Shown one piece after another: positions 4,112 through 45,960 of a DNA stretch of 64,000 nucleotides. The DNA is from Pseudoteredinibacter isoporae (GTDB lineage Bacteria > Pseudomonadota > Gammaproteobacteria > Pseudomonadales > Cellvibrionaceae). A program made the position numbers and the translations under genes. The stretch lies in NCBI RefSeq assembly GCF_011602085.1, contig NZ_JAAONY010000004.1:93472-157471 (forward strand), in the 5' to 3' direction. The notes under the pieces are model-generated. The model had not been told where the DNA came from, ran no database searches, and saw only the letters and a list, made by a program, of their open reading frames with translations. Each line of letters begins with the position of its first letter. The first letter of the stretch is position 1.

Positions 4112-6328
4112 TTAGAAGCTAAAATCAGCACGCAGAGTAAAGTTACGGCCTGGCTCAGTGAAGCGAGTGATGCCGTTACCGCGAACACCAATACCTGGAC
4201 GCAGGTCATCACGACCTACAAAGCGAATGCTGTCCCAGATGTAGTATTCCTTGTCTGTAACGTTGAAGACACCGGCACGCAAAGTCAGTTGTTCTGTGAC
4301 CTTGTAGAATGCGGTGATATCCAGAACGGCAGAACTGTTGCTCAGGTAGTCACGCTCTACACGTTCGCCATCGGCGTTGGTCGAGTAGGCATCTTCGGCA
4401 TCTTTGGCTGAGGTATAGGTCAGGGTAGAGTTCACGCCCCAATCATCCTGATTGTAGCCAAAGCCCAGTTTTGCACTGAATGGCTGGATGCTGGTCAGTG
4501 GATCGCCATTTTCCTGCTCACCATCAGCATACGCAGAGCTTGCAAAAGCACTCATACCTTCGGGCGCGCCCAGAGCTTTGTGCAGATCAACACTGGCGCT
4601 GATTTCCAAACCTTTGGTATCGGCTTCGCCAACGTTGGCTGCTACAGAGTAGATGTCTTCTGCACCAGCCGCATTGATGCGGGTGCGGCTCTGAGACTCA
4701 ATGAAATCTTGATACTGATTGAAGAAACCAGTGATGCTGATACGACCGGCATCAAATTGAGTTTCGAAGGTCAGCTCGTAGTTAGTCGCAGTTTCAACAT
4801 CCAGATCCGGGTTAGGGCCGGTTCTCCAGTCATCAGCCGAGCCGCTGCGGGTATACAGGTTTTCAACCGTAGGAGCGCGGAAGGCACGACCAATCTTGGC
4901 GATAATCTTACTGTTGTCGTTGATTTTCTGAGTCAGGCCTAGAGCGCCACTGAAGAAGTCGAAGTCTTGTTTGTTCAGGCTGCCACCCAAGCGATCAGCG
5001 TAAAACTCGCTTGCTGTTGCATCGTATTCGTAATCGTCATAACGAATTCCCACTTCGAGCTGAGTCTCGTTGCTCAGGGTAATGCGATCCAGAACGAACA
5101 GGTTGTAGTTCTTGATTTCGGAATGCGGTACCAGCGCTTGACGAGTGCTTGGAATAACCTCGGTACTGCCTTCCGGAGTGAACAAACGCGTTTCTTCGTT
5201 ATCTACTTCTTTGTCAGAGTAGGCGAAACCGTAGAACAACTCATGCTCAACATCACCAGTTTGAATACGTTTGTTGAAGTCAAACTTGAATTGGGTCAGT
5301 TCCTGATCGAAAGAACGGTTGTCCACTCGGAAACCAACAACCGGAGGGCCAAAGAAGCCTGGAATATTTACACCTTGTGGTGTTTTGGCTTCAAAGTCGA
5401 TGTTCTGACGGTCGATACTCCACTCGATACGGTCAAACAAACCGGCATTCACTTCCATCTTGTGGAAGATACCTACACGCTGACGCTCGCTGGTGTCATC
5501 ACCCTGACGGTTGATGTACCAAGGGCCATTGTAGGAGCGGGCATCGGTTTTGATTTCCTGAGTGTAATCTTCAACAACCAAACCAATGGTGTTATTGCTG
5601 CTGATATCGTAGTTCAGCTTAAGCAAGATGCTGTCTGTATCGCGATCCTGAGGGTCTGGACGCTCACGCTGACTGCCGTCGATGTCGGGGCCAGCCGTAT
5701 GGTTTTCGGTTTCATGACCGCTGCGCTTGGTACCAATCAACAGGGCTTCAAACTGACCGGAACGACCCGCAAGAGCAAGACTGCCCATGGTGGATTCGCT
5801 GGCACTGTCGTAGGAGCTGCTGAAGTCCAGGCCGAAATCGTTGCCGCTTTCTTTCAGGAAATCGTCCGCATCTTTAGTGACGAAACGTACCGAACCACCC
5901 AGTGCACCGCTACCGGAAATGACTGAGTCGGCTCCTTTGGTGATGCTTACCTGCTTGACGGTTTCCAATTCCAAACCATTGCGACCACCTTTAAAGTAAC
6001 CGTAGGCCTGACCTCCTTCGTACTGGAGGGTCTCTCCTTGCTCAACACCGTCGATAGAAACAGCGATACGGTCATCGTCCACGCCGCGAATGTTGAAACC
6101 GGTACCACCCCAGCGGCCATCAGCGGCCTTGATAACAACACCAGGCAGGTCGCGAACCAGATCGTCCAGATTGTTGACCATGTTTTCTTCAATCTTCAGA
6201 TTGGAGATAACTTCCTGGTTTTCTTTGGTTTCGCCTTTTACTTTGGTCGTTTCCAGTTCCTGGACCTGAGCAAAGCTGTTGCTGCTGACCAGAGCGATGG
6301 CCAGCGCTAAAGTAGATTTTTTAAACAT
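4112..6328 (-). CDS. TonB-dependent outer-membrane receptor (last gene of 12-gene iron/TonB2 operon)
   Basis: Signal peptide MFKKSTLALAIALVSSNSFAQ, a plug domain, a long beta-barrel and the C-terminal aromatic ...RADFSF. ATG at 6328 follows a GGAG. The track start at 6349 is in-frame upstream but lacks the signal-peptide logic. Confidence 0.9.
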   Translation of the reverse strand: MFKKSTLALAIALVSSNSFAQVQELETTKVKGETKENQEVISNLKIEENMVNNLDDLVRDLPGVVIKAADGRWGGTGFNIRGVDDDRIAVSIDGVEQGETLQYEGGQAYGYFKGGRNGLELETVKQVSITKGADSVISGSGALGGSVRFVTKDADDFLKESGNDFGLDFSSSYDSASESTMGSLALAGRSGQFEALLIGTKRSGHETENHTAGPDIDGSQRERPDPQDRDTDSILLKLNYDISSNNTIGLVVEDYTQEIKTDARSYNGPWYINRQGDDTSERQRVGIFHKMEVNAGLFDRIEWSIDRQNIDFEAKTPQGVNIPGFFGPPVVGFRVDNRSFDQELTQFKFDFNKRIQTGDVEHELFYGFAYSDKEVDNEETRLFTPEGSTEVIPSTRQALVPHSEIKNYNLFVLDRITLSNETQLEVGIRYDDYEYDATASEFYADRLGGSLNKQDFDFFSGALGLTQKINDNSKIIAKIGRAFRAPTVENLYTRSGSADDWRTGPNPDLDVETATNYELTFETQFDAGRISITGFFNQYQDFIESQSRTRINAAGAEDIYSVAANVGEADTKGLEISASVDLHKALGAPEGMSAFASSAYADGEQENGDPLTSIQPFSAKLGFGYNQDDWGVNSTLTYTSAKDAEDAYSTNADGERVERDYLSNSSAVLDITAFYKVTEQLTLRAGVFNVTDKEYYIWDSIRFVGRDDLRPGIGVRGNGITRFTEPGRNFTLRADFSF

Positions 6329-6345
6329 TTGTGTCTCCCCATTAT

Positions 6346-7806
6346 TCAATTGGCCGCTATCTCAGCGTTGCCAACTAAAGGTGATCTCAACTCCAGCTCT
6401 ATATACTGGATTTCTTTTTGGCCTTTCTCGGTTTGTTTTATTGGCTTCCCTAGCTCAAATGGAATGCTTATTTTTTCGTGTCCACCATGTTCTCTGGCAG
6501 CTTCTATAATTAATTGGTATTGACCGGCCGCGACGGCCTTGCCGAAATCATCGCGTCCTGACCATTGCAGTTGATATTCACCGGCCCGGCGGGTAGGGCG
6601 AGCCATTACATCCAGCAGGGTAGGGGTTTTGCGGCCCTGACGGCGCCACCACACACTGTTTTCGCTCATCCAGCGTTCGCTGTCGCCCAGCAACAGCAAG
6701 TTCTTAACGACCTTACGTTTTTTATTTTCGATCCAAAGTGCGACATAGGGCTTGCGGTAGTTACCGCTGCGGATTTTAGGGAGAGCGAAGCGAATATTGG
6801 CCGAAGCCAATTCGGCTTTGCTGTCTTCATGATCGGATGAGTGCCAGGCGCTGCTGGCAAACTGACGGCCATCTTCGCTGATCAGCAGGGCTTCGACCTG
6901 TTTCGTTTGTTCAACCCAATCGAGAGCCTTGTCGACATCCATTGTGCTCAGGGCGGTTGCGATGGCATCGGCTTTGGTTGCCGTCGGCGCAATAACAACC
7001 ACGCTGTGCGGAAAATCTCTCGGCCAGCCATCGCGGGCCTGGAGAATGTGGCTGAACTGGCGGCGGCCAATTTTTCGGCTTCTCGCCTGATGACCACTGT
7101 AAGCGATGGCCTGATTATTCAGTTGGATGTTGCCAAGCGAGTTCTGCTGACTGTCGTCAAGTTGATTGGGGTTGGCAAGGCTTATTGCCCAGGCTTTGCT
7201 GCCGGGTTTTTGCCACTGTCGAATATCTCCGCCAATCTCTAAGGTGAGGGCATTCGCTGCAGGTGCGGCTTTGCGAGCTTGTGCAATCGCCTGGTCGATA
7301 ATGTAACCCTTGGCAATTGCCGAAAATTCCCAGCTGAAATCTTTGGGGATCTCTGCGTCGCTCAATGTGTATTCGGAATACAGGGCCTTGCGAGCGAGAG
7401 CACGAATGGCTTTACGATCCGGGCGCTCCTGTTTTTTTTCGGCTTCGTTCCACGCTTCAATGACCGAACCCAGACGGCAACTGAAGGCCATGGGCAACTC
7501 TTTTTGCCACTGTTGGCAAAGCGAAACCATGGTGTGCATTTCCGGAGACAGCGTGCTGATAACACCACGGCGTATCTGCATGAGTTCGCTCTCGCTGTCA
7601 TAGCTGCTGTAGATTTTTTCCAGGCGATGAATTTCAGCCAAGGCGGCCTGTTCAGCAAGTTTGGCTTCCTGATCGTTGGCGTCGATGCGTAAATGCATAG
7701 AGGTGCCCAAAACATTGTCGTTGTGGAAATCGACAATGCCTGCGGTCATCATTCCGCTGTTGAGTAGGCATCCGATGCTTAAAAGTGGCGTGAGAAACTG
7801 TTTCAC
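6346..7806 (-). CDS. apbE: FAD:protein FMN transferase (ApbE) fused to a C-terminal DUF2271 domain
   Basis: ApbE motifs are present: AKGYIIDQ, EIGGD, AYSGHQARSRKIGRRQFSHILQARDGWP and SVVVIAPTATKADAIATAL. The last ~130 aa (PYVALWIENKK...AAREHGGHEKISIPFELGK) is clearly paralogous to the free DUF2271 protein at 15460-15945. GTG start at 7806 gives lipoprotein-like KQFLTPLLSIGC. Confidence 0.75.
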   Translation of the reverse strand: MKQFLTPLLSIGCLLNSGMMTAGIVDFHNDNVLGTSMHLRIDANDQEAKLAEQAALAEIHRLEKIYSSYDSESELMQIRRGVISTLSPEMHTMVSLCQQWQKELPMAFSCRLGSVIEAWNEAEKKQERPDRKAIRALARKALYSEYTLSDAEIPKDFSWEFSAIAKGYIIDQAIAQARKAAPAANALTLEIGGDIRQWQKPGSKAWAISLANPNQLDDSQQNSLGNIQLNNQAIAYSGHQARSRKIGRRQFSHILQARDGWPRDFPHSVVVIAPTATKADAIATALSTMDVDKALDWVEQTKQVEALLISEDGRQFASSAWHSSDHEDSKAELASANIRFALPKIRSGNYRKPYVALWIENKKRKVVKNLLLLGDSERWMSENSVWWRRQGRKTPTLLDVMARPTRRAGEYQLQWSGRDDFGKAVAAGQYQLIIEAAREHGGHEKISIPFELGKPIKQTEKGQKEIQYIELELRSPLVGNAEIAAN

Positions 7807-7879
7807 TGATTTGGCTACTGTTTTGAAAAGGGAACAGGCGCCACGGTGTGGCGCCGTTGTGAGTGGTCTAGACCACGGC

Positions 7880-8908
7880 TTAGTAGCTGTCCGACTTGGC
7901 TGCTACCTTCTGGCTGGCGGCGATGTCGTCTGCTGAAATAACGCCATCCTGGTTTTTGTCCCAGCGATTAAAGATGCGTTTGCCGGAAATCTGCAGCTCA
8001 TCAAAGGTCATGCTCTTGTCCTTGTTATCGTCCAGAACATCAAAGCGAATATAGGTTTGTTTGATGGCCGCACGACGGGTTTTGGCGATAGCCGCGTCCA
8101 CGCGATCTTCGTACTCACCCAGATATTCGTTCAATACCAGATCGCCACTTTTATCCTGATCGGCAAGGTGAAAGACCGAGCGACGCTCGTTTACGAATTC
8201 ATCCTTGGTGATCTTGCCATCTTCGTTGGCGTCATAGATGGTGAACATACCTTTTTTACTGTGTGTGGTTGGCATGCGAATCATGGAGCGACGGCGAGCT
8301 TTTTTCTTGGCCTTTTTCTTATCGGCCTTGGCAACTTTTTCGCCTTTTTTCTTTTTCCACTTGTACTCGGGCTTTGGATCGTTTTCATCAATAACGTTAT
8401 CTTTATTGCCGTCCCAGCGAGCAAAGGTGCGCTCACCCGAAGCCTCGTATTCGGCCCAGGTCATCACTTCATTGTCGTCTTTATCGAGAGCCTTGAAGCG
8501 AACGATGGTTTGTTTTACCTGACCTTTGCGATCTTTTTCAATGCGGTCGTCCAGGCGGCCTTCATATTCGTAAACGTATTCTTCGGTGTCCAGAGTGCCG
8601 TTTTTGTTGCTATCGACACTGTCAAAGAACTTGCGACGGGAATCGTTGTACTCGCCCCAGCTGACTACGCTGTCTTTAGAGGCATCGTGATCTTCAAGAA
8701 TGCGGGCCAGACGTTCTTCTGTCATGGGCATTGGGCGGTGGCCGCGATCATCTTTCGCAGCTTTTGCCCGTTCAGTTTTGCTCAGGCCTTTGCTATCAGC
8801 CATGGCGGCTTTAGCATTGTTGGCCGAGCTTTGTTCGGCAACGGGTGTGGTCTGGGAGCAAGCGCTCAAGCTTGCAACCGCGATGGCAATCGGTAGTAAT
8901 TTTTTCAT
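7880..8908 (-). CDS. EF-hand calcium-binding lipoprotein
   Basis: MKKLLPIAIAVASLSACSQ is a lipoprotein signal. At least six EF-hand loops are present (DSNKNGTLDTEEY, DKDDNEVMTWAEY, DGNKDNVIDEND, DANEDGKITKDEF, DQDKSGDLVLNEY, DKNQDGVISADD), plus a KKKK-rich segment. ATG at 8908; the track M at 8920 is GTG. Confidence 0.8.
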   Translation of the reverse strand: MKKLLPIAIAVASLSACSQTTPVAEQSSANNAKAAMADSKGLSKTERAKAAKDDRGHRPMPMTEERLARILEDHDASKDSVVSWGEYNDSRRKFFDSVDSNKNGTLDTEEYVYEYEGRLDDRIEKDRKGQVKQTIVRFKALDKDDNEVMTWAEYEASGERTFARWDGNKDNVIDENDPKPEYKWKKKKGEKVAKADKKKAKKKARRRSMIRMPTTHSKKGMFTIYDANEDGKITKDEFVNERRSVFHLADQDKSGDLVLNEYLGEYEDRVDAAIAKTRRAAIKQTYIRFDVLDDNKDKSMTFDELQISGKRIFNRWDKNQDGVISADDIAASQKVAAKSDSY

Positions 8909-8920
8909 GGCTATTCTCAC

Positions 8921-9721
8921 TTAGATGTTTTCGAACACTTGCACACTCAGGGTGGTCGTGTGGCTGAAGGTAGGCACTTTCGAGCCTTCTGGTGCAGGTC
9001 CGCGATAGCGGGCGCGCAGCAAATATTTACCAGCCGGCAGAGTTAAAGCGGCAACGCCGTCTTTATTGGTGGCAAAGCTCATGGGCTTGCTCTTTTCTTG
9101 ATTGGCGCGGTAAGCCAGGATTTCCTGATCGGCCATGCCTTTGTTGTCCAACAGAATTTTCAGGGAGAACTCTTCGTCTGCGAACAACTCGGTCGGGTTG
9201 TCGATGGGAAGAATTTGCAAACCTTCTGCTTCAACTTTCAGTGCACCATTACTCGGAGCCTTGCGGCTGACATAGGTGTCGGCGCGAGTAATGGATTGGA
9301 AGTGAAACTTAACGTCGGCGCCTTCGGGTGCAGGTTCTTTAGGGTCCATAACCCGCTTCTCTTCGCCGTCCAAATCGTAAATCAGGAAGGTTGCGCCTTT
9401 GCGTGCGCCCGTAGTGATGCGGTAGGTGCCTTCGTCTTTCAGTTCATGTTCCAGAACCACACGGGTTTTCAGTTCGGCCATTGAATCAGGTTTGACGCTA
9501 TTGCCTTCTGGAGTGGTGACCATGAAGTGGCCCTTGTTAAAAGCGGCCTCAGGAATGAAGAATTCTTCCGCGAAGGAGGCATCAAAGCTGGCCATTTTTC
9601 CCATCACCGGCTCAAAGCTGGTTGGAGCGATATAAGGGGTATGGGCTGAACTCTGGGAAGCGGTAAAAGCTGCCAGAGAAGCCAGAAGCAATGCGTGGGG
9701 TTTACGAGGTAGGCCAAACAT
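8921..9721 (-). CDS. DUF4198-family periplasmic protein
   Basis: Signal peptide MFGLPRKPHALLLASLAAFTASQSSA followed by HTPYIAP. Beta-rich, about 265 aa. Typical partner of PepSY-TM and TonB-receptor genes. ATG 9721 has GGAG 10 nt upstream; the track start at 9736 is TTG. Confidence 0.55.
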   Translation of the reverse strand: MFGLPRKPHALLLASLAAFTASQSSAHTPYIAPTSFEPVMGKMASFDASFAEEFFIPEAAFNKGHFMVTTPEGNSVKPDSMAELKTRVVLEHELKDEGTYRITTGARKGATFLIYDLDGEEKRVMDPKEPAPEGADVKFHFQSITRADTYVSRKAPSNGALKVEAEGLQILPIDNPTELFADEEFSLKILLDNKGMADQEILAYRANQEKSKPMSFATNKDGVAALTLPAGKYLLRARYRGPAPEGSKVPTFSHTTTLSVQVFENI

Positions 9722-9874
9722 AGTCAGGTTCTCCAAGATTTAGCTGTGTTTACCGCCTGTTGCGACAAGGTGGGTCGACAAATCAGGCGAATGGTAATGC
9801 AAATAAAAATGATTCTCAATAATTATGAAGAAAAATCCACAATTCAACACGAAAATGAGGATCAGGTCGCCGGT

Positions 9875-10453
9875 TTAACTGGCGACCAGAGCAACGGTGC
9901 AAACCGCAGCAGTTAAAAAGCCCAGATACACAGCGGGCTTCAGGTATCGCCGATTGGGCAATAACAGAATTAAACCGCTGATGGAAAACAGTAAAATCAG
10001 CACCGAACTGACATCGAGCAGCAGCTTCCAGGCGAGGCCGGTATGACGCCCTTTATGCAAATCGTTCATCCAGGCCCAAACACCAAAATCACTGCGGCTG
10101 GCAGTCACCAAGCCACTTTCCAGTTCCAGTTCGCCACTGGCAAAACCACCGGGCATCTGCGCATCAAAAAACAGTACTTCCCCGTCATCTTCGATTTTTA
10201 GCTGACTGAAGTTCAGGCCTAAAGCCTGTTCAATCTGCCCAATCTGGTTTGGGCTGAACTGAGCGCCTTGTTCGGCTTTGTAGGCGTCCAGTTGAAATTC
10301 AATTTCCTGTTCCTGGGCTTCACCAACGAACCAGCTGGGGTGGTTCAGGGTAATGCCCGTGAAGGCGAAGAACAGCAGTAACAGCAACAGGGCAATCGCT
10401 GCGTAAATATGGAGCAATCGGGACCAGCGCCACAGAGTTTTGTTTACTTTCAT
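9875..10453 (-). CDS. PepSY-associated TM-helix protein (short, about 190 aa)
   Basis: Has the paired PepSY_TM signature WRWSRLLHIYAAIALLL...TGITL and NDLHKGRHTGLAWKLLLDVSSVLILLFSISGLILL. ATG at 10453. Confidence 0.6.
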   Translation of the reverse strand: MKVNKTLWRWSRLLHIYAAIALLLLLLFFAFTGITLNHPSWFVGEAQEQEIEFQLDAYKAEQGAQFSPNQIGQIEQALGLNFSQLKIEDDGEVLFFDAQMPGGFASGELELESGLVTASRSDFGVWAWMNDLHKGRHTGLAWKLLLDVSSVLILLFSISGLILLLPNRRYLKPAVYLGFLTAAVCTVALVAS

Positions 10454-10456
10454 GGT

Positions 10457-11836
10457 TTAGCGTGTGTTTTGTTGTCTTATCAGTCTCTGAAGAATGTCCA
10501 TATTTGCAATCAAGTCCCTGCGGCTCGGATCGAGCTTCAGTATGTTTTGTAAAAAGCCTTGCGCGGCCTTGTAGCGTTTTTGCAGGTAGGCCACCTGGGC
10601 ACGTTTCATCCAGGCCGCTTCGCGGCTGTTGTCCATGGAAGCCGCGCGACTCAAAAGGATGTCTGCACGGCTTAGCTGTCCTTGTTCGATACGCAATTGG
10701 GCGAGATCCAAAATGGCGTCGCCATTGGCCGGGTTGTGCTTGAGCGCTTGTTGCAGCAGGCTTGCCTGGCGTTTGCTTTGGCCTTTATTGGCCGCCAGCT
10801 TGGCACGCTGCAAACTCCAGTGACTCAGGTCTACAGAACGGTACTGTTTGCTTTGAGCTTTGCTGGCCTGAATCAGCGTGGCGAGATCATTCCAGTGACC
10901 GTGTGATGCCAACCACTCCAACATCGGGCCGAGGTAACCATAGTCTTTCAGCAGGCTGGGGCTTTGCTTGGCGATATGAACGGCACGAGAAATGTTTCCG
11001 GACTGCACATTAAGTTGCGCCAGCAGTTGCAGATTCTGCTTCTGTTTTTCGCCCAGGCGATACGCCATTTCCATCGCGGTCAGTGCGCGATTCTTTTGTT
11101 CAGCTGCGATTGCGGCATTGGCTTTGTGCAGCCAGAGTTCACGGTTGTTTGGATCATCCCGCAGCAGTTCATCAATCAAACTGTTAGCTTGCAAGTGCGA
11201 GCGCGATTGACTCAAGGCCATTAGCAAACCTTTCTGCCAGTGCTTGTTCTCGGGCGCAAGGGCGTAGGCTCTCTGATAGGCAGCGACAGAGCTGAATGCC
11301 GAATGTTCGCGCAAATTCAGGTAGCCCAGTTGACCGAACAGATCTGCGCTGGCACCGCCGAGCGCAATGGTTTGTGCGAGATACTGACGTGCCTTTCCCG
11401 CTTGATTTTGACTCAGTGCAAGCCCTGCCAGAGATTGGCTGGCCAACATATAATCGCCATGCAGTTTGATGGACTTCAGATAGTCTTTTTCAGCCTGCGA
11501 GTATTGTTTAAGTTGGGTGAGCACTTGCGCACGGACGTAAAGCAGTGCGGCGCTGGGTTCACTGGGCCAATGCTCTTTCAACTGGGTGTTGGCCCTGCTG
11601 TATTGTTTTTTATCCAGCAGTGGGCGTATGGCATCAATGATCGGAAATTCTTCGGTTTTCAACTTCGGATTGCTGCCCCCGCTGGCCAGCGGTTTGAAAC
11701 TCATGGCCCAATTGGGTTCAGGCAAAGAAATTTTGACATCCGCGCTTGCCGGCAGACTCAAAACCACTAAGCCCAGGCTGAAAACAAGGCCATTGAGGAA
11801 CTGCCGGGCTCGTATTGAGGTATTAAAAAATAGCAT
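10457..11836 (-). CDS. TPR-repeat protein (TtpD-like accessory of TonB2 systems), secreted
   Basis: Signal peptide MLFFNTSIRARQFLNGLVFSLGLVVLSLPASA, then multiple TPR-like helical repeats. ATG 11836 has GAGGT upstream; the track start at 11848 is TTG. Confidence 0.7.
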   Translation of the reverse strand: MLFFNTSIRARQFLNGLVFSLGLVVLSLPASADVKISLPEPNWAMSFKPLASGGSNPKLKTEEFPIIDAIRPLLDKKQYSRANTQLKEHWPSEPSAALLYVRAQVLTQLKQYSQAEKDYLKSIKLHGDYMLASQSLAGLALSQNQAGKARQYLAQTIALGGASADLFGQLGYLNLREHSAFSSVAAYQRAYALAPENKHWQKGLLMALSQSRSHLQANSLIDELLRDDPNNRELWLHKANAAIAAEQKNRALTAMEMAYRLGEKQKQNLQLLAQLNVQSGNISRAVHIAKQSPSLLKDYGYLGPMLEWLASHGHWNDLATLIQASKAQSKQYRSVDLSHWSLQRAKLAANKGQSKRQASLLQQALKHNPANGDAILDLAQLRIEQGQLSRADILLSRAASMDNSREAAWMKRAQVAYLQKRYKAAQGFLQNILKLDPSRRDLIANMDILQRLIRQQNTR

Positions 11837-11844
11837 AGGAGACC

Positions 11845-12528
11845 TCAACTGTGCTCCAGTTCTAGTGGCCAGATAAATTCGGCTTTTACCAACTTTCCAT
11901 CGACTTTGGGCGGCGTAAAGCGAGCTTGATTAATGGCTTGTTTTAAACTGGGTTTGAGTTCCGGATATTTTAATTGGGTGATTCTTTGCAAATGCACCTG
12001 GCCTTGCTCGTCGATCATCACCAGCAATTTGACCAGCGCTTTATTGACACCACGTTGGTACAGTCGGTGAGGAAAACTCACGCGAATCGGCGTCAGCAAT
12101 TGTGGTCGCTGGTCCAGCTGTTCCAGCCCAAAGGCCTGCCAATCGGGAGACCAATCAATGTTTAAATTAACCTGAGTCAAACTGTCGACAGGTGGTTTTT
12201 CGACTTTTATCTCGTTGACTTTGACCGGTTGTTTACTGACTTTCAAAGCTAAGCCCTGTGCTTGAAAGCTGAAATCCAGATCGGCAACCTGGCTGCTTTC
12301 CTGACTTTGTTCCTGGGCCGGTGGCGGTGGTGGGGGCGGCAGCGCAACACTGATCTGGCGCACGACCCAGTCTTTCTTTTCCGGTACCTTGTCGGATTTA
12401 CTCAGCTGCAGCAATGCCAATAAGGCGGCCAGGCTCAGACCGGCAAATAATATCGCCAGTGCCCGGCGGGCAAACGGTGAAAATGCTTGCGCTTTTGAAA
12501 GCTGTGAACTCATTGCACCCGTTGCCAT
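11845..12528 (-). CDS. tonB: Energy transducer TonB
   Basis: N-terminal TM anchor, proline-rich spacer PPPPPPPAQEQSQ and a TonB C-terminal domain. ATG 12528 has GGGAG upstream and abuts the exbD stop. Confidence 0.8.
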   Translation of the reverse strand: MATGAMSSQLSKAQAFSPFARRALAILFAGLSLAALLALLQLSKSDKVPEKKDWVVRQISVALPPPPPPPAQEQSQESSQVADLDFSFQAQGLALKVSKQPVKVNEIKVEKPPVDSLTQVNLNIDWSPDWQAFGLEQLDQRPQLLTPIRVSFPHRLYQRGVNKALVKLLVMIDEQGQVHLQRITQLKYPELKPSLKQAINQARFTPPKVDGKLVKAEFIWPLELEHS

Positions 12529-12530: not shown

Positions 12531-12941
12531 TTAGCTCCCTCGCTTGGTCGCGATATTGATTTGACTGGCGCCTGCCAGCTTGGCTTGGTCGATCACATCC
12601 ACCAGCAGTTGAGCCGAGGTGTTTTTATCCGCTTGAATCACCAAGGCTTTTTTCTGCTTGGCCAGGGCGTGGGCGATGGTTGCGCGCACGCCGGAGACAC
12701 CGATATTGGCACCGTCGTACATGACTTCGCCGCTGGCGCTGATGGCCAACAGAATCACATTGCGTTCCAGGCGTTCGCTCGAAACGGCTTTGGGTTTATC
12801 CACTTCAATACCGGTTTCTTTTACAAAAACCGTGGTCACGATAAAGAAGATCAGCAGAATAAAAACGACATCCAACAGCGGAGACAAGTCGATATTGTTG
12901 CCTTGTTCCTGTTCGATGCGCTGGCTGAGTCTGGATCTCAT
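12531..12941 (-). CDS. exbD: Biopolymer transport protein ExbD/TolR
   Basis: 136 aa with a single TM (LLDVVFILLIFFIVTT) and a periplasmic domain. ATG at 12941. Confidence 0.85.
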   Translation of the reverse strand: MRSRLSQRIEQEQGNNIDLSPLLDVVFILLIFFIVTTVFVKETGIEVDKPKAVSSERLERNVILLAISASGEVMYDGANIGVSGVRATIAHALAKQKKALVIQADKNTSAQLLVDVIDQAKLAGASQINIATKRGS

Positions 12942-12945: not shown

Positions 12946-13329
12946 CTAAGCCTCGCTCATGCCAGTGTCCGTCTCACCGTATTGGACAAGGCGGCTTTTA
13001 ATGTAGTGGTTGAGCAGGTAGCCGGGTACAGCCAGCAAAAGGCCAAGCTGTGTTGTGCCCAGAGCGGTGCCCACACCGCCAGCGATCAGGGTGTTGAAAT
13101 CCACATGGTCGGCGGCCATATCGGCAAAGGTTTGCAGCAAGCCCATAATGGTGCCGAGCAAACCCAACAGGGGCAGGGCCGCCAGGCAGGCGTCTGCGAG
13201 TTGACAGCGGGATTGCTTCTTTTCCAGGTCTGCGTTGGCATTTAGCAACGTATCAAACAGCAGGCTGTACGCGAGTAAGCCCACCAGCAGAATTGCCCAG
13301 AAAACCCACTGATCAAGATGCAAAATCAT
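12946..13329 (-). CDS. exbB: MotA/TolQ/ExbB proton-channel protein (short ExbB2-type)
   Basis: Core motif LPLLGLLGTIMGLLQTF...GGVGTALGTTQLGLLLAVPG. ATG at 13329 overlaps the upstream stop (ATGA). Confidence 0.75.
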   Translation of the reverse strand: MILHLDQWVFWAILLVGLLAYSLLFDTLLNANADLEKKQSRCQLADACLAALPLLGLLGTIMGLLQTFADMAADHVDFNTLIAGGVGTALGTTQLGLLLAVPGYLLNHYIKSRLVQYGETDTGMSEA

Positions 13330-14696
13330 GCGGCTCTCACCTCGGGTTTTTCAACGGGCCATTGCAATTGGCTCAGCTCGATAGCGAAAGCTTCGGCTTT
13401 ACTGTTTTGACGGCGTACCCAACGTTGCAAAAAGGCGTGCAGCAGCAGAGCAGGAATGGCGACCACCAAGCCCAATTCGGTAGTGACCAGAGCTTCAGAA
13501 ATACCGGACGATACGGCGCTGGCGTCACCCGAGCCAAAAATGGTCATCAGCTTAAAGGTTTCGATCATGCCGCTGACGGTTCCAAGCAGGCCCAACAAGG
13601 GGGCAACGGCGGCGATTACGGCGATTGTGCCTAACCATTTTTCGAGACGCTGCTTGTCGGCCATTAAACTGTTAAACAGGCGATCTTCCCTTGGTCCGAG
13701 TTGCTCTTCCGTCAAACAGATGTTGAGCAGTTGAGCTTGAATGCCCGGCTTTTTCTGTTGCTTAAACAGTGCTTGCAATTGCGCTCCCGCTTCGCGATCG
13801 CCACGCTGGAAGGCTGCGGCTGCACGACTGCCAAGCGCGGGAATCCATTTGGGAAGGCGCAACAGCTGTAGGCTCTTCAATAGGGCACATATCACGGCAA
13901 CGACACCGAAGAACAAAATCGGCAGGGCCCAAACACCGCCTTTAAAAATATGTTCACTCAGGCTTTCTTCTTGCTGTGCCAGTTTGATGGCGCGCTCCAG
14001 ACTGGGGTCAAAATGCAGTTCGCCTTGGCCTTGTTGGGCTTGTGCTTGCCAGCTGCGGCTTTGGGAATCAGAGGCCTGCAGAATAATTTCGGGAATGTCG
14101 TTGTCGTTTAACCAGCCTGCAATGGCTTGTGAATCTGGGGCTTTCGACACCGCCCAGCGAACCGGACCCAGACGGAGAACCTGGGCATCCTGAAGCTGGC
14201 CGTCAGTACTGATAATTTGCTGTGCTTTCCAGCTTGGCAGCAGGGCATCTTGCTGTTCTTGAGCCTGTTGTTCAAACAGGTTCAGCAGGGTATCACTGTT
14301 GTGGCTGTCGTCCAGATCTATCTTGTTGCCCAGATAATCGACCAGGGCATAAGCTTGATAGGCGTCTTGTTCCTGCCAGTTTTTCAGTCGGTCTTGCAGT
14401 TCTTGCAGGGCCAGAGTTTTTTCATCGGCCAGGCGCTGGATGGTGGCCGCCTTATCACGTAAGCCTTCAACTTGAATTTCTGCTTTATGAAGTCGAGTAG
14501 AAAAGGATTGTCTTTCAGCAGACTGCTTTTTCTGTAAAGCAAGAAGCTGACTTTGGGATTTTTTGATATCCCTCATCAGACCGGCTTCAAGCTGATTGTC
14601 GGCCCAACTTGCCGGGCTGAGCAGGGCGGCCGATAGCAGGGTGGTGCTAAGCAATGATCTCGAACGTTTACGTGCGAATCGTTTGAGTGTGATCAT
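13326..14696 (-). CDS. Long MotA/TolQ/ExbB-family protein with N-terminal periplasmic coiled-coil domain (TtpC-like)
   Basis: 456 aa. Signal peptide MITLKRFARKRSRSLLSTTLLSAALLSPASWA, a Gln/Leu-rich coiled coil, then the MotA/TolQ core (AVIAAVAPLLGLLGTVSGMIETF...SSGISEALVTTELGLVVAIP). Matches the TtpC component of Vibrio-type TonB2 systems. Confidence 0.75.
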   Translation of the reverse strand: MITLKRFARKRSRSLLSTTLLSAALLSPASWADNQLEAGLMRDIKKSQSQLLALQKKQSAERQSFSTRLHKAEIQVEGLRDKAATIQRLADEKTLALQELQDRLKNWQEQDAYQAYALVDYLGNKIDLDDSHNSDTLLNLFEQQAQEQQDALLPSWKAQQIISTDGQLQDAQVLRLGPVRWAVSKAPDSQAIAGWLNDNDIPEIILQASDSQSRSWQAQAQQGQGELHFDPSLERAIKLAQQEESLSEHIFKGGVWALPILFFGVVAVICALLKSLQLLRLPKWIPALGSRAAAAFQRGDREAGAQLQALFKQQKKPGIQAQLLNICLTEEQLGPREDRLFNSLMADKQRLEKWLGTIAVIAAVAPLLGLLGTVSGMIETFKLMTIFGSGDASAVSSGISEALVTTELGLVVAIPALLLHAFLQRWVRRQNSKAEAFAIELSQLQWPVEKPEVRAA

Positions 14697-15463
14697 ATGG
14701 CATCACCACTCAATGTTACGGTGATTGGCAACAGGGTGGCTTTTTCAGGCTGCTTGGCCGCTTTGATCAGGGCTTGCAGTTGATCGGCCAGTGCATTGTC
14801 GCTGTGCCACTGCCATTGATCACTCCCCGCTTCACCGTAGCCTGCGTATTGGCCATCCCGACTCAGGTACCAGCCTTTGGAAACACCGAGATAGAGCTGA
14901 TCTACCAATATTTCCTGCTCGCCCTCATCCGCGATTGGCATCAGCGCTTGATGCAGGGTGACTTTTTCTCGAAAGCGGTCAAAGCTTTTGTACATATCGA
15001 GATACAGATCCAGCCGCTTGCTGGGGTGATCCTCCAACAGAGCCAGCTTATTCAAATTTTCCTGCCAGTGTTTCGCCAGTGGTTCGGGTAGCCGAGGCAG
15101 CAGAGCGGTGACATGGCGACTGGCCGATTCCAGAGAGCCTTTGAGTTGCTGTTGGCGGGCCTCCAGAGCGTTTTGTTCGCTGGCCAGTTCTTCGCGTTTT
15201 TGCTGAGCTTTGGTTTTTAAACCGGAGTGTTTATCCAGGTGCTTTTTAAGCCCCGAGCTTTCGGCATTCAACAGCTCAAGGCGCTGTTGCAGAACCTGCT
15301 TTTCCTCTTGCCAGGATAAACGCATCTGTTCACGCTGTTGCTCGATGGCCAGCCATTGTTGCATGAGTCCTTCGAGACGGGAGGCGGGGGATTGTTGGGC
15401 GAGGCTGCCCGCTTGATAGCTCAAGCCCAGCGCCAATGAAGCTGTCAGAATCCAGCGTTTCAC
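14693..15463 (-). CDS. DUF3450-family periplasmic coiled-coil protein (TtpB-like)
   Basis: Signal peptide MKRWILTASLALGLSYQAGSLA and a coiled-coil-rich body. Its GTG start overlaps the stop of the upstream DUF2271 gene (GTGA coupling). It sits immediately 5' of the TtpC-like gene, as in TonB2 operons. Confidence 0.6.
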   Translation of the reverse strand: MKRWILTASLALGLSYQAGSLAQQSPASRLEGLMQQWLAIEQQREQMRLSWQEEKQVLQQRLELLNAESSGLKKHLDKHSGLKTKAQQKREELASEQNALEARQQQLKGSLESASRHVTALLPRLPEPLAKHWQENLNKLALLEDHPSKRLDLYLDMYKSFDRFREKVTLHQALMPIADEGEQEILVDQLYLGVSKGWYLSRDGQYAGYGEAGSDQWQWHSDNALADQLQALIKAAKQPEKATLLPITVTLSGDAI

Positions 15464-15945
15464 GACTTGGCCTCAATGCTCAGTTGGCTGAACTCTCCTT
15501 CCAGTTTGAGTTCACCTTTTTCAGTTAGCGGCCATTCGAACTTCAGACATTTGGCATTGTGGCCGCCGTGTTCCCGGGCGACTTCAGCGCAGAGCTTATA
15601 GGTGCCGGGCGCCAGTTCCTTTGCTTTGCCGTCCAATCCATCCCAAGTGAGGGTGTACACACCTGGCCCTTTTGTTGCACCGGTGACACCGTCGGCGGCA
15701 TGTTCGTTCTTGCGTAGAACGCGTCGCCAAAAGTACTTAAGATCCTTTAACCAGCGGTCATCTTCATACCACAGCTGAACCACACGCTGGGGTTTGTTTT
15801 TGCTGTTGGCAATCCAAACCGCCGCGTAGGGGCGCTCGTAATCCCCAACATTAAAGCTGGGTAACTCGATTTCAATTTGATAAGGGGCAGCCACAGTGCT
15901 GCCGACCCAGCATAGCAGGGCCATCGACAAGGTACTTCTGGACAT
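15460..15945 (-). CDS. DUF2271 domain protein, secreted; carries DGVTGAT flavinylation-type motif
   Basis: ATG at 15945. Signal peptide MSRSTLSMALLCWVGSTVAA. Paralogous to the C-terminus of the ApbE fusion (shared PYAAVWIAN... and AREHGGH). Contains NEHAADGVTGATKGPG, which matches the ApbE substrate consensus D-x-x-[ST]-G-A-[ST]. Confidence 0.7.
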   Translation of the reverse strand: MSRSTLSMALLCWVGSTVAAPYQIEIELPSFNVGDYERPYAAVWIANSKNKPQRVVQLWYEDDRWLKDLKYFWRRVLRKNEHAADGVTGATKGPGVYTLTWDGLDGKAKELAPGTYKLCAEVAREHGGHNAKCLKFEWPLTEKGELKLEGEFSQLSIEAKS

Positions 15946-15965
15946 AAATTAATAATAAGATGGCA

Positions 15966-15990
15966 AATGAGAATCGTTATTATAATTATT
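15966..15990 (-). promoter_or_regulatory. Candidate Fur box in promoter of the 12-gene iron/TonB2 operon
   Basis: aaatgagaatcgttattataattatt matches GATAATGATAATCATTATC at about 14 of 19 positions. It lies 20-45 bp upstream of the first ATG (15945) in an AT-rich intergenic region. Confidence 0.5.
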
Positions 15991-24632: not shown

Positions 24633-24670
24633 AACAGGGTCTTTTAATGGTATTGGACGATAGGGCGCAT

Positions 24671-24700
24671 CGATATAATGGGTATGAATAATGCGACTGA
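24671..24700. promoter_or_regulatory. Possible Fur-box-like GATAAT hexamer repeats in receptor/AraC divergent promoter
   Basis: cgatataatgggtatgaataatgcgac contains two GATAAT-like hexamers. It lies 40-70 bp upstream of the receptor ATG. Weak match. Confidence 0.3.
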
Positions 24701-24811
24701 TTCGTATTTGCGTAATTTGCTCGGCGGGCAGTATAATTTGCGTGGATGCGCAATTCCTTTGCGCAACAATCAAATGCCTTTGCTTAGCGAGCAATTTGCC
24801 AGGAGAGAACA

Positions 24812-43627: not shown

Positions 43628-43927
43628 TAGCAAGCTTGCAATGATCATAACAATCAGTGCTCGGGGCTGATAACTGAGTGCTATGGAGATCAACAGACTC
43701 GCAAAGGTAATGCTCGCAACATAATACACCGTACCTAAGGCGATGCCGTGAGCGGCGAATACAAAGTAGCCCGAGAAAACCAAACAGGGCCAAGCGAGCA
43801 GCTTGTACCATCCGCCGCGAACATCTATCTGGAAATTGAAATTGGCATAAACCTGTTTTTGGTGACGCTTATCGACCATAGATAAGGCAATCAGCCCCAG
43901 TAGCATAAACAGAAAAGCAAGCATCAT
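43598..43927 (-). CDS. DUF3325-family small membrane protein (second copy)
   Basis: 109 aa with 3 TM. Its ATG overlaps the PepSY gene stop (ATGA). Its 3' end overlaps the convergent HK gene by 30 bp. Confidence 0.5.
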   Translation of the reverse strand: MMLAFLFMLLGLIALSMVDKRHQKQVYANFNFQIDVRGGWYKLLAWPCLVFSGYFVFAAHGIALGTVYYVASITFASLLISIALSYQPRALIVMIIASLLLLTGSLLNG

Positions 43928-45510: not shown

Positions 45511-45791
45511 GCGGCAGACTCCAGAAATTGACTTCCGACGACAATCACAAGTGATATCAACGCTGCGATTAGTAATCCAAGGCTGGCAGATTTCAAAGTG
45601 CTTGTTGAAAATACCCAGATGATAGCCGCCGTATAAAATAAAAAACTGCAAGCCATTGCGAGTGCTACACTTTCGTCCATAGATATGGGAAGGATTTTGC
45701 TCAATGCAATCGCACATAAATTAGCGACCAGATAACCGCCAAGGCAGGCCAGTAAAATGCGGTACTTGATAAATGTTGGTGCGTATTTCAT
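45507..45791 (-). CDS. DUF3649-family small membrane protein (second copy)
   Basis: MKYAPTFIKYRILLACLGGYLVANLCAIAL..., about 94 aa, 3 TM. ATG 45791 has GAGGAAAG upstream. Confidence 0.5.
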   Translation of the reverse strand: MKYAPTFIKYRILLACLGGYLVANLCAIALSKILPISMDESVALAMACSFLFYTAAIIWVFSTSTLKSASLGLLIAALISLVIVVGSQFLESAA

Positions 45792-45906
45792 GACTTTCCT
45801 CGAAAGCACTCAATGAACAGAACTGGAGATTTGAGCGAGCGACAATCTAACGTGAGGAAATATCTAAAGCAAATGTAACAGTTGTAACAACCCTGTGAAG
45901 CGTTTC

Positions 45907-45931
45907 AAAAATGAGGATAATTCTCATTTAT
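45907..45931. promoter_or_regulatory. Fur box in divergent promoter between DUF3649-PepSY-DUF3325 operon and TonB-dependent receptor
   Basis: aaaatgaggataattctcatttatt is a strong match to GATAATGATAATCATTATC (GATAAT...TCATT core). It lies 30 bp upstream of receptor ATG 45961. Confidence 0.6.
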
Positions 45932-45960
45932 TCAAACTGACAGAAACAGGTTCAACTGAC

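What the first reader, a model, noticed from the sequence alone, without database searches (positions are those of the whole stretch)
15460..15945. Free DUF2271 protein carries a canonical ApbE flavinylation motif (DGVTGAT); the ApbE-fused paralogue has lost it
The sequence NEHAADGVTGATKGPG (about nt 15675-15695) fits the D-[AG]-x-[ST]-G-A-[ST] motif. In NqrC/RnfG-type proteins ApbE attaches FMN to the final Thr of that motif. The paralogous position in the ApbE-DUF2271 fusion (6346-7806) reads DVMARPTRRAGEY, so the motif is absent. This suggests division of labour. The fused copy may dock the flavin transferase, while the free secreted DUF2271 is the flavinylated electron carrier that may hand electrons to the PepSY-TM and DUF4198 proteins.
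Basis: partly seen in the sequence, partly recalled or inferred. Interest (0 to 1): 0.6.

Follow-up and report, generated by a model that had tools for sequence, protein, structure and literature searches.

The report
Flavin-carrier DUF2271 pair in iron operon
The small secreted DUF2271 protein does carry the known attachment site for a covalent flavin, which is an already published feature of this iron-reduction system. The copy fused to the flavin-attaching enzyme has a rewritten site that still keeps the acceptor residue, a pattern shared by well over a hundred related fusions.

Summary
The free DUF2271 (15460-15945, minus strand) carries DGVTGAT, the only such motif in the window. The DUF2271 domain of the ApbE fusion (6346-7806) reads DVMARPT at the homologous position.

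Méheust et al. 2021 showed experimentally that DUF2271 is flavinylated by ApbE at [S/T]GA[S/T], and they described PepSY-like/ApbE/DUF2271/DUF4198 iron clusters.

"Lost the motif" is too simple.
- Among 143 ApbE-DUF2271 fusions with an intact ApbE catalytic signature, none has [ST]GA[ST].
- All 143 keep Ser/Thr at the acceptor position, and 141 keep Arg at the next position. The loop consensus is x-[RK]-[PA]-[ST]-R.
- Fusions that do keep SGAT/SGAS have a degenerate ApbE-like domain.

The division-of-labour idea does not generalise. Of 28 fusion loci with at least 8 kb on both sides, only 2 also encode a free DUF2271. In the rest the fused domain is the only DUF2271, next to PepSY-like and DUF4198 genes.

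The free copy is very probably an FMN-Thr91 periplasmic electron carrier in a 12-gene TonB2-type iron-uptake operon that may be Fur-regulated. Sequence alone cannot say whether the fused domain flavinylates itself at Thr405 or is a flavin-free adaptor. Novelty is modest: a new variant of a known system.

The parts
15460..15945 (-). Free secreted DUF2271 protein (161 aa). It is the first gene of the operon, with an N-terminal signal-like segment MSRSTLSMALLCWVGSTVAA|PYQ.
   Evidence: Pfam PF10029 E=4e-38. Identical to P. isoporae P0121. AF2 model pLDDT 91.2, beta-sandwich fold.
15673..15693 (-). Canonical ApbE flavinylation motif D85-G-V-T-G-A-T91. Thr91 (codon 15675-15673) is the predicted FMN acceptor.
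   Evidence: Ala90 and Thr91 are invariant in 71 free homologues. Experimental precedent in PMC8238504.
15963..16006 (-). Promoter-like site (TAGCCA-16-TATAAT, 16006-15979) overlapping a Fur-box-like 19-mer (15963-15981, 14 of 19 matches to GATAATGATAATCATTATC).
   Evidence: These are consensus matches only. The Fur-like site is one of the three best in the window.
14693..15463 (-). TtpB-like protein (DUF3450). Its start overlaps the DUF2271 stop by 4 nt.
   Evidence: Pfam PF11932 E=4e-26. Junctions. Vibrio TonB2 operon in PMC6957404.
13326..14696 (-). TtpC-like long MotA/ExbB protein (456 aa).
   Evidence: Pfam PF01618 E=3.8e-28.
12946..13329 (-). ExbB-like protein (127 aa).
   Evidence: ORF. 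Homologues are annotated MotA_ExbB in L004. phmmer matches in related loci.
12531..12941 (-). ExbD-like protein (136 aa).
   Evidence: ORF. The homologue in L004 is PF02472 ExbD.
11845..12528 (-). TonB (227 aa) with a Pro-rich linker.
   Evidence: Pfam TonB_C E=4e-4, below the gathering score. The position in the operon fits.
10457..11848 (-). TtpD-like TPR protein (463 aa).
   Evidence: Pfam TPR families. It is the last gene of the TonB2-type block.
9875..10453 (-). PepSY_TM_like_2 membrane protein (192 aa), the presumed transmembrane electron conduit.
   Evidence: Pfam PF16357 E=5e-37. Adjacent to the fusion in 60 related loci.
8921..9736 (-). Secreted DUF4198 protein (271 aa).
   Evidence: Pfam PF10670 E=1.2e-31. 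Present in 52 related loci.
7880..8920 (-). Multi-EF-hand protein (346 aa) with a lipoprotein-like N-terminus.
   Evidence: Pfam EF-hand families. Present in 41 related loci.
6346..7806 (-). ApbE-DUF2271 fusion (486 aa). The ApbE domain is 7710-6883 and the DUF2271 domain is 6798-6406. Catalytic His253 (7050-7048), Asp280 (6969-6967) and Thr284 (6957-6955) are present.
   Evidence: AF2 pLDDT 92.4 and pTM 0.90. The ApbE part matches Ftp/FmnB/ApbE crystal structures with TM 0.77-0.85.
6574..6612 (-). Rewritten loop D399-VMARPT405-RRAGEY of the fused DUF2271. Thr405 (codon 6594-6592) is homologous to the flavinylated Thr.
4112..6349 (-). TonB-dependent outer-membrane receptor (745 aa), the last gene. 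It overlaps the fusion gene by 4 nt.
   Evidence: Pfam Plug and TonB_dep_Rec. Junction.

Best explanation
The window comes from Pseudoteredinibacter isoporae. It carries a 12-gene minus-strand operon (15945 to 4112), possibly Fur-controlled, that joins two known units. One is a Vibrio-type TonB2 energy module (TtpB-TtpC-ExbB-ExbD-TonB-TtpD). The other is a 'PepSY-like' flavinylation-associated ferric-iron reduction module (PepSY_TM_like_2, DUF4198, an EF-hand protein, ApbE-DUF2271 and a TonB-dependent receptor).

The first gene encodes a free, secreted DUF2271. After export, an ApbE flavin transferase attaches FMN through a phosphoester bond to Thr91 of its DGVTGAT loop. The co-operonic fused ApbE is the obvious candidate, but a housekeeping ApbE elsewhere in the genome is not excluded. 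The FMN-DUF2271 then acts as a periplasmic one- or two-electron carrier. It receives electrons that the PepSY-like membrane protein brings across the inner membrane and passes them to Fe(III) or Fe(III)-chelate imported by the receptor, possibly held by DUF4198.

The DUF2271 domain fused to ApbE belongs to a large separate clade. Its flavinylation loop has been rewritten to x-[RK]-[PA]-[ST]-R, but the acceptor hydroxyl and the whole DUF2271 core are kept. It is therefore not a decayed copy. I favour, without proof, that it is flavinylated in cis at Thr405.

Shown here: domain identities, motif presence and absence, conservation statistics and gene neighbourhoods. Inferred: covalent FMN on Thr91, which enzyme attaches it, the direction of electron flow, the iron substrate, Fur control and the state of Thr405.
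For: - Domains and operon: (4-nt overlaps or gaps of 4 nt or less at 9 of 11 junctions).
- Organism: (100% identity to P. isoporae proteins).
- Motif: unique in the window and far above chance. It is kept in orthologues: 13 of 15 close free copies, and 71 of 88 free representatives have the strict or [ST][SA]A[ST] form, with the acceptor Thr in 88 of 88.
- Experimental precedent: DUF2271 is flavinylated by its cognate ApbE and Thr-to-Ala abolishes it. PepSY-like clusters carry ApbE, DUF2271 (2833 clusters), DUF4198 (1500) and TonB components (231) (PMC8238504).
- Iron link: DUF2271/DUF4198 genes, including a COG1477(ApbE)-DUF2271 fusion, are induced by iron limitation in Alteromonas (PMC7190382). 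The Caulobacter PepSY/DUF2271/DUF4198 locus is a Fur target needed under EDTA stress (PMC12004947).
- Promoter region: a Fur-box-like site overlaps a promoter-like site upstream of the first gene.
- ApbE domain: catalytic His/Asp/Thr are present and nearly invariant. The fold matches solved ApbEs.
- Module conservation: the same module with both DUF2271 copies recurs in the nearest relatives (L005, L085; L008, L009 and L016 in a variant order).
Against: - No biochemical data exist for this protein.
- The Fur box matches only 14 of 19 positions, and the promoter scan found no more sites than shuffled sequence gives.
- No cytoplasmic electron donor is encoded in the operon.
- The PepSY_TM_like_2 protein is the short three-helix type, and haem binding has not been shown for that type.
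- Whether the fused ApbE can act in trans on the free copy is unknown.
- The window contains no other ApbE, but the rest of the genome was not available.
Confidence: 0.8

Rival explanations
1. Both copies carry flavin. The fused ApbE flavinylates its own DUF2271 domain at Thr405, in cis, through the non-canonical x-[RK]-P-[ST]-R loop. The covalent tether replaces the need for the small Gly-Ala pair. The free copy is a lineage-specific extra carrier.
For: - Ser/Thr at the acceptor position in 143 of 143 fusions with an intact ApbE signature. Thr and Ser interchange (115 and 28), but nothing else appears. The next residue is Arg in 141 of 143.
- All DUF2271 core residues (P39, W44, E121, R124, E125, G127, E151 equivalents) are kept at 99% or more in fused copies.
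- In 26 of 28 fully flanked loci the fused domain is the only DUF2271. It sits beside PepSY-like and DUF4198 genes, exactly where the free DUF2271 sits in classical triads. No neighbour family has a motif, so a catalytically intact ApbE would otherwise have no local substrate.
- Active-looking fusions show a graded series: SGAT (P0248), AGAT, SAAT, SSAT, [ST][RK]AT, ARPT.
- Single G-to-A or A-to-V changes leave about 50% flavinylation (PMC12052999).
- In Trypanosoma FRD, cis-flavinylation by a fused ApbE domain is at least 5 times more efficient than trans (bioRxiv 10.1101/2020.12.30.424822).
Against: - No ApbE substrate with Arg/Lys at -2 and Pro at -1 has ever been shown.
- The trypanosomatid cis case keeps a consensus motif.
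- The Thr-Arg pair is also conserved in free copies and could be structural.
- Substrates elsewhere in those genomes were not excluded.
Confidence: 0.45
2. The fused DUF2271 is flavin-free and works as an adaptor or pseudo-substrate that docks ApbE to the free DUF2271 or to the PepSY/DUF4198 complex. Only the free copy carries FMN.
For: - 0 of 143 fusions with an intact ApbE signature have [ST]GA[ST].
- The bulky Arg/Lys/Glu at -2 and Pro at -1 are selected rather than random (R 85, K 34; P 110).
- Fusions that keep SGAT/SGAS have a dead ApbE-like domain. This could mean an active ApbE and a canonical substrate loop are avoided in one chain.
- Free and fused copies are conserved together in the window's nearest relatives.
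- The fused loop is modelled as more ordered, with an extra helix before it.
Against: - Most fusion loci have no free DUF2271 to dock (26 of 28).
- Acceptor Ser/Thr invariance is unexplained if the site is unused.
- After de-replication the anticorrelation is only modest (Fisher p=0.04, 55 representatives).
- There are exceptions: P0228 and P0253 have AGAT with an intact ApbE, and P0248 has SGAT with a good ApbE C-terminal half.
Confidence: 0.3
3. The free DUF2271 is flavinylated by a housekeeping ApbE (for example the one serving Nqr) encoded elsewhere. The fused ApbE serves only its own module, so the two copies are functionally unlinked.
For: - The free copy has a fully canonical motif that any ApbE should accept (review PMC12052999).
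- In the window it heads the TonB2 block, 7.6 kb from the fusion gene.
- More distant free homologues occur in loci with no apbE within the fetched flanks (up to 10 kb): L001 and L087.
Against: - Both genes are in one tightly packed operon.
- In relatives the free copy directly precedes PepSY-DUF4198-EFhand-ApbE-DUF2271 (L085).
- No second ApbE is visible in the 64 kb window.
Confidence: 0.2
4. The DGVTGAT match is coincidental and the protein is a flavin-free periplasmic beta-sandwich, for example a metal or ligand binder.
Against: - The chance expectation is 1.5e-4.
- The motif sits at the family-invariant Ala-Thr position.
- Flavinylation of a homologue at this position is experimentally proven.
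Confidence: 0.03

Closest known systems
ApbE-flavinylated DUF2271 of PepSY-like systems (Méheust et al., eLife 2021, PMC8238504; AlphaFold view in mSystems 2024, PMC11334425)
   Same: Same Pfam family, same [S/T]GA[S/T] loop, signal peptide and co-clustered apbE, PepSY_TM_like_2, DUF4198 and TonB components. That paper already notes ApbE-DUF2271 single-gene fusions.
   Different: Here there are two DUF2271 copies in one operon. The fused one belongs to a clade whose loop is x-[RK]-P-[ST]-R instead of the published logo. Neither paper comments on this.
Alteromonas macleodii iron-limitation-induced DUF2271/DUF4198 gene pairs (Manck et al. 2020, PMC7190382)
   Same: A marine gammaproteobacterium with DUF2271 fused to COG1477 (ApbE) or to pfam16357, next to iron-responsive TonB-dependent receptors and induced by low iron.
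   Different: That work is expression data only, with no analysis of flavinylation sites. The gene order and the embedded TonB2 block differ.
Trypanosomatid glycosomal fumarate reductase with an N-terminal ApbE domain (bioRxiv 10.1101/2020.12.30.424822)
   Same: ApbE is fused to a protein that carries an acceptor Ser/Thr. Cis-flavinylation is shown and is at least 5 times more efficient than trans.
   Different: The substrate motif there is consensus (DGRSSAS) and lies N-terminal to ApbE. The substrate fold and the biology are unrelated.
Vibrio vulnificus TonB2 system TtpB2-TtpC2-ExbB2-ExbD2-TonB2-TtpD2 (PMC6957404)
   Same: The same six-gene order, with a DUF3450 protein first and a TPR protein last, iron-regulated and with a Fur box upstream.
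   Different: In the window a DUF2271 gene precedes ttpB, and the reductase module plus the receptor follow ttpD in the same operon.
FoxB / VciB PepSY-type membrane ferric reductases (PDB 7ABW as cited in PMC11334425; VciB as cited in PMC8238504)
   Same: PepSY-associated transmembrane proteins proposed or shown to deliver electrons for periplasmic Fe(III)/siderophore reduction.
   Different: The operon's protein is the short PF16357 type (192 aa). Two full-length PF03929 genes lie elsewhere in the window. VciB is not associated with flavinylation components.

Membership tests
ApbE-flavinylated DUF2271 (free copy, 15460-15945) | Matches Pfam PF10029 above the gathering score | tested here: met
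   130.7 bits against a cutoff of 27.3.
ApbE-flavinylated DUF2271 (free copy, 15460-15945) | [S/T]GA[S/T] (D-x-x-[ST]-G-A-[ST]) at the family's conserved loop | tested here: met
   DGVTGAT at residues 85-91. It aligns with the invariant Ala-Thr of 71 free homologues.
ApbE-flavinylated DUF2271 (free copy, 15460-15945) | Extracytosolic location (signal peptide) | tested here: inconclusive
   The N-terminus MSRSTLSMALLCWVGSTVAA|PYQ looks like a Sec signal by inspection, and the AF2 pLDDT is low for residues 1-20. No signal-peptide predictor was available.
ApbE-flavinylated DUF2271 (free copy, 15460-15945) | apbE in the same gene cluster | tested here: met
   An ApbE domain is encoded at 6883-7710 in the same operon.
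ApbE-flavinylated DUF2271 (free copy, 15460-15945) | Covalent FMN on the motif's last Thr | not testable with these tools
   This needs in-gel fluorescence or mass spectrometry.
ApbE-flavinylated DUF2271 (fused copy, residues 337-467 of 6346-7806) | [S/T]GA[S/T] motif | tested here: not met
   The loop is A-R-P-T. 0 of 143 related fusions with an intact ApbE signature have the motif. The acceptor Thr405 is retained.
FAD:protein FMN transferase ApbE (N-domain of the fusion) | ApbE fold, plus the catalytic His (V. cholerae His257 equivalent) and the Mg-binding Asp/Thr (T. pallidum Asp284 equivalent) | tested here: met
   Pfam 165 bits. H253 lies in 'SHIL', and A279-D280-A-I-A-T284 aligns to solved ApbEs. 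The signature is intact in 143 of 174 fusions. Foldseek TM 0.77-0.85 to 4xdt, 7esa and 1vrm.
PepSY-like flavinylation-associated system (Méheust 2021 definition) | [quoted passage not shown] | tested here: met
   PF16357 E=5e-37 at 9875-10453, inside the operon.
TonB2-type (Ttp) energy transduction system | Six-gene order: DUF3450(TtpB)-TtpC-ExbB-ExbD-TonB-TPR(TtpD) | tested here: met
   compared with PMC6957404. The TonB_C match is below the Pfam cutoff.
Cis-flavinylating ApbE-substrate fusions (trypanosomatid FRD type) | A consensus flavinylation motif in the same polypeptide as an active ApbE domain | tested here: not met
   There is no consensus motif anywhere in the 486-aa fusion. It may still work like one, and that is untested.
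Fur regulon member | A Fur box overlapping the promoter | tested here: inconclusive
   A 14 of 19 match at 15963-15981 overlaps the -10 region of a promoter-like site. These are consensus matches only.

The most novel reading that the evidence does not exclude
Catalytically intact ApbE-DUF2271 fusions flavinylate themselves at a non-canonical x-[RK]-[PA]-[ST]-R site. These fusions number hundreds of sequences across alpha-, beta- and gammaproteobacteria, including Acinetobacter. If true, ApbE's accepted substrate motif is broader than D-x-x-[ST]-G-A-[ST] when the substrate is tethered, and motif-based censuses of flavinylated proteins miss this whole class. The mirror-image class, a dead ApbE-like domain fused to a canonical SGAT DUF2271, would then be substrates that depend on a trans-acting ApbE.
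Probability: 0.4. Interest if true: 0.6.

Novelty: new variant of a known kind. Interest (0 to 1): 0.4.

Why it matters
The headline of the finding, that DUF2271 has an ApbE site, is textbook since 2021 and does not matter on its own.

What could matter to people working on extracytosolic flavinylation and bacterial iron reduction is the family-wide pattern found while checking it. When DUF2271 is fused to an active ApbE, the Gly-Ala of the site is replaced (mostly by Arg/Lys-Pro) but the acceptor Ser/Thr is never lost. When the fused ApbE-like domain is dead, the canonical site is kept.

Two outcomes are possible:
- ApbE has an unrecognised, tether-dependent substrate motif. This is relevant to flavin-tag engineering and to bioinformatic counts of flavoproteins.
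- The fused domain is a pseudo-substrate adaptor, which would be a new way of targeting a modifying enzyme to its complex.

One SDS-PAGE fluorescence experiment with a T405A control would decide between them.

Tried and rejected
1. I ran the search for related loci on genome contigs with the single fusion protein instead of an alignment. As a result I could not check whether genomes with fusion-only loci encode a free DUF2271 or another ApbE elsewhere.
2. I predicted the fusion structure hoping to measure the distance from Thr405 to the ApbE active site. The tool returns no coordinates or PAE, so the geometry remains untested.
4. I looked for an alternative ApbE substrate in the neighbourhood (PepSY-like, DUF4198, EF-hand, receptor) across 84 loci. 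None carries a motif.
5. I considered that the fused protein is a lipoprotein because of LSIGC in the window sequence. Only 8 of 96 homologues have a lipobox-like string, so it is more likely an ordinary signal peptide.
6. I considered the fused copy a recent decayed duplicate of the free one and rejected this. The two are 37% identical and fall in different clades of a neighbour-joining tree.
7. The word-indexed homologue search with the free copy gave only 15 hits. The exhaustive profile search was needed to see the family.
Full report
**1. Observation**

The minus-strand ORF at 15460-15945 encodes a 161-aa protein that matches Pfam DUF2271 (PF10029, E=4e-38). It contains NEHAADGVTGATKGPG. 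The seven-residue motif D85-G-V-T-G-A-T91 is encoded at 15693-15673.

The pattern D[AGS]x[ST][GAS]A[ST] occurs only this once in all six-frame ORFs of 100 aa or more in the 64-kb window (34,198 aa). From the operon's amino-acid composition, the strict motif is expected 1.5e-4 times in a protein of this size.

The ORF at 6346-7806 (486 aa) is an ApbE (residues 33-308) plus DUF2271 (residues 337-467) fusion. The two DUF2271 copies are 37% identical and align without gaps across the loop. D85-GVTGA-T91 corresponds to D399-VMARP-T405.

The fused copy lacks the canonical Gly-Ala context but still has the first Asp and the acceptor Thr.

**2. What is already known**

Méheust et al. (eLife 2021, PMC8238504) identified DUF2271 as an ApbE substrate.
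- They found the conserved [S/T]GA[S/T] motif.
- They showed that Amantichitinum ursilacus DUF2271 is flavinylated by its cognate ApbE, and that the Thr-to-Ala mutant is not.
- They noted that some genomes encode ApbE and DUF2271 in one protein.
- They defined 'PepSY-like' systems (PF03929/PF16357 with ApbE, DUF2271 and DUF4198, sometimes with TonB components) with a proposed role in periplasmic Fe(III) reduction.

Other relevant papers:
- Manck et al. (PMC7190382) saw DUF2271 fused to COG1477 (ApbE) or to pfam16357, induced by iron limitation, in Alteromonas.
- In Caulobacter the equivalent locus is a Fur target and is needed under EDTA stress (PMC12004947).

**3. Genomic context**

The window is from Pseudoteredinibacter isoporae (100% identity of both proteins). 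Twelve minus-strand genes run from 15945 to 4112. Nine of the eleven junctions are 4-nt overlaps or gaps of 4 nt or less. The order is:
- DUF2271
- TtpB (DUF3450), TtpC, ExbB, ExbD, TonB, TtpD (TPR)
- PepSY_TM_like_2, DUF4198, an EF-hand protein
- ApbE-DUF2271
- a TonB-dependent receptor

(Domain assignments.) The six middle genes reproduce the Vibrio TonB2 operon (PMC6957404).

Upstream of the first gene there is a promoter-like site (16006-15979, 10 of 12 matches). It overlaps a 14 of 19 match to the Fur box at 15963-15981, one of the three best in the window. These are only consensus matches.

**4. Is the motif conserved only in free copies?**

The free copy's close homologues keep DG[VA]TGAT[RK]GPG in 13 of 15 cases.

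An exhaustive profile search found 2140 DUF2271 representatives. Among the 88 short (230 aa or less) proteins I recovered:
- 50 have strict [ST]GA[ST]
- 21 have [ST][SA]A[ST]
- 4 have xGA[ST]
- 13 have something else, and several of these look like fragments of fusions
- the acceptor is Thr in 88 of 88

For the fusion, all 120 best homologues (33-100% identity; gamma-, alpha- and betaproteobacteria, including Acinetobacter, Phenylobacterium, Henriciella and Chitinimonas) lack [ST]GA[ST] in the DUF2271 domain.

I pooled 174 full-length fusions and scored the ApbE catalytic signature: GGD, plus His253, Asp280 and Thr284. These are the residues that align with the catalytic His and the Mg-binding Asp/Thr of solved ApbEs. 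The Asp is essential in T. pallidum and T. brucei. 143 fusions are intact. Of these 143:

| Position | Result |
|---|---|
| strict [ST]GA[ST] motif | 0 |
| SSAT | 2 |
| -2 | R 85, K 34, E 10, G 4 |
| -1 | P 110, A 27 |
| acceptor | T 115, S 28 (100% hydroxyl) |
| +1 | R 141, K 2 |

**5. An unexpected mirror image**

The fusions that keep a strict site (P0180 and P0183 with SGAT, P0219 with SGAS) have ApbE-like domains in which every catalytic residue is replaced. Their Pfam ApbE scores are 32-52 bits or absent. Several with an AGAT loop (P0149, P0152, P0234, P0266) are degenerate in the same way.

A further group has Asp280 replaced by Gly, Asn or His. It shows SSAT, TSAT, TGAT, GSAT, ASAT or T[RK]AT loops.

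The anticorrelation is only modest after de-replication to 50%-identity representatives: 2 of 26 intact against 9 of 29 non-intact have [ST][GS]A[ST] (Fisher p=0.04). It also has exceptions. P0228 and P0253 have AGAT with an intact ApbE. The truncated P0248 has SGAT with a good ApbE C-terminal half.

**6. Does the fused domain dock the free copy?**

I examined 83 fusion loci, 3 from genomes and 80 from metagenomes.
- Of the 28 with at least 8 kb on both sides, only L005 and L009 contain a second, free DUF2271. Among the partial loci only L008 and L016 do.
- The common core is DUF4198 / ApbE-DUF2271 / PepSY_TM_like_2, often with the EF-hand protein, a receptor and a TonB2-type block. The fused domain thus occupies the place of the free DUF2271 of classical PepSY-DUF2271-DUF4198 triads (such as L001, L087).
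- No PepSY-like, DUF4198, EF-hand or receptor ORF in any locus has a flavinylation motif.

The nearest relatives of the window do conserve both copies. L005 has the same order as the window. L085 has DUF2271-PepSY-DUF4198-EFhand-ApbE-DUF2271. L086 has DUF2271-TtpB-TtpC. Coexistence is therefore a trait of this subclade and not a general property of the fusions.

In a neighbour-joining tree of DUF2271 domains the free copy groups with free TGAT proteins, and the fused copy lies inside the ARPTR clade. The two are old paralogues.

**7. State of the fused domain**

The family's invariant core (P39, W44, E121, R124, E125, G127 and E151 in free-copy numbering) is kept at 99% or more in fused copies. 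Systematic differences are confined to loop positions -6, -2 and -1, plus W59 and D68.

Several points make self-flavinylation at Thr405 plausible:
- the invariant acceptor hydroxyl
- the lack of any other local substrate for an intact ApbE
- the tolerance of ApbE to single G-to-A and A-to-V changes (about 50% flavinylation; PMC12052999)
- the demonstrated cis-flavinylation by a fused ApbE domain in trypanosomes, at least 5 times more efficient than trans

Against it:
- no substrate with Arg/Lys-Pro before the acceptor is known
- the trypanosome case keeps a consensus motif
- the Thr-Arg pair could be structural
- substrates elsewhere in the genomes were not excluded

AF2 gives a confident two-domain model (pLDDT 92.4, pTM 0.90). 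Its ApbE part superposes on Ftp, FmnB and ApbE crystal structures (TM 0.77-0.85). In the fused model the loop is well ordered (pLDDT 91-92) and preceded by an extra helix (residues 396-401). The free copy's loop is the least confident internal segment of its model (pLDDT 80).

**8. Mechanism proposed**

Shown here: domain content, motif, conservation and neighbourhoods.

Inferred:
- After Sec export, Thr91 of the free DUF2271 receives FMN from FAD through an ApbE. The co-operonic ApbE is the most likely enzyme.
- The flavoprotein accepts electrons delivered across the inner membrane by the PepSY-like protein. It then reduces Fe(III) or an Fe(III)-chelate imported by the operon's receptor, which is powered by the operon's own TonB2 machinery.
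- DUF4198 and the EF-hand protein are conserved partners of unknown role.

For the fused domain I give about 0.45 to cis-flavinylation at Thr405 and about 0.3 to a flavin-free adaptor or pseudo-substrate role.

**9. Verdict**

The main claim is already known. The rewritten but acceptor-retaining loop of ApbE-fused DUF2271, and its mirror-image class with a dead ApbE-like domain, appear undescribed in the searched literature: only two papers in the library mention DUF2271 together with ApbE. They make a cheap, decisive experiment possible. Interest is moderate (0.4), and this is a new variant of a known kind.

Noticed in passing
window 7698-7806 (N-terminus of the fusion gene): Database gene models of this protein and of its two closest relatives (P0001-P0003, 450 aa) start at Met37 (MHLRID...). 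This removes the signal peptide and the first ApbE strand. More distant homologues all have a signal peptide followed by F(E/H)HxNVLGTS, so the GTG at 7806 (486 aa) is the better start.
   Followed up: partly
window 7837-7855 (minus strand): A GC-rich stem-loop (8 pairs, 7 of them G-C) with a weak T tail lies in the 73-nt gap between the EF-hand gene and the ApbE-DUF2271 gene. It may be an internal attenuator or an RNA-processing or stability element within the operon.
   Followed up: no
window 7880-8920 (minus strand), and 41 related loci: A 346-aa multi-EF-hand protein with a lysine-rich linker and a lipoprotein-like N-terminus is a recurrent neighbour of the ApbE-DUF2271 fusion. It was detected in 41 of the 85 loci searched (the window, 83 other fusion loci and L001). 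It is not part of the published description of PepSY-like systems, and its role (calcium? metal?) is unknown.
   Followed up: partly
P0180, P0183, P0219, P0149, P0152, P0234, P0266 (representative proteins, not in the window): A class of fusions in which the ApbE-like domain has lost all catalytic residues, while the attached DUF2271 keeps a canonical or near-canonical SGAT/SGAS/AGAT site. They are presumably substrates of a separate ApbE that carry a 'pseudo-ApbE' domain.
   Followed up: partly
window 20334-21956 (-), 22572-24884 (-), 43924-45717 (-), 45895-48006 (+): Two further full-length PepSY_TM (FoxB-like) genes each sit beside a TonB-dependent receptor gene. The window is therefore an iron-uptake island with three PepSY-type/receptor pairs.
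   Followed up: no
window 16199-18091 (minus strand): A 630-aa predicted multi-pass membrane protein directly upstream of the operon's promoter region has no Pfam family at E<=1e-5.
   Followed up: no
window 1895-3283 (+): A three-domain multicopper oxidase gene lies about 800 nt beyond the 3' end of the operon's receptor gene, on the opposite strand. It may be a ferroxidase or cuproxidase, which would fit the metal theme.
   Followed up: no
P0204 (363 aa, representative protein): A PepSY_TM_like_2-DUF2271 fusion with a canonical TGATR site. The membrane conduit and the flavin carrier are in one chain, as reported for Alteromonas MASE_17435.
   Followed up: no
L002 12207-13691; L085 9377-9922: Flavodoxin_1-domain proteins are encoded next to the module in Acinetobacter shaoyimingii and in a close relative of the window. 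They are candidate cytoplasmic electron donors. The window's operon has no such gene.
   Followed up: no
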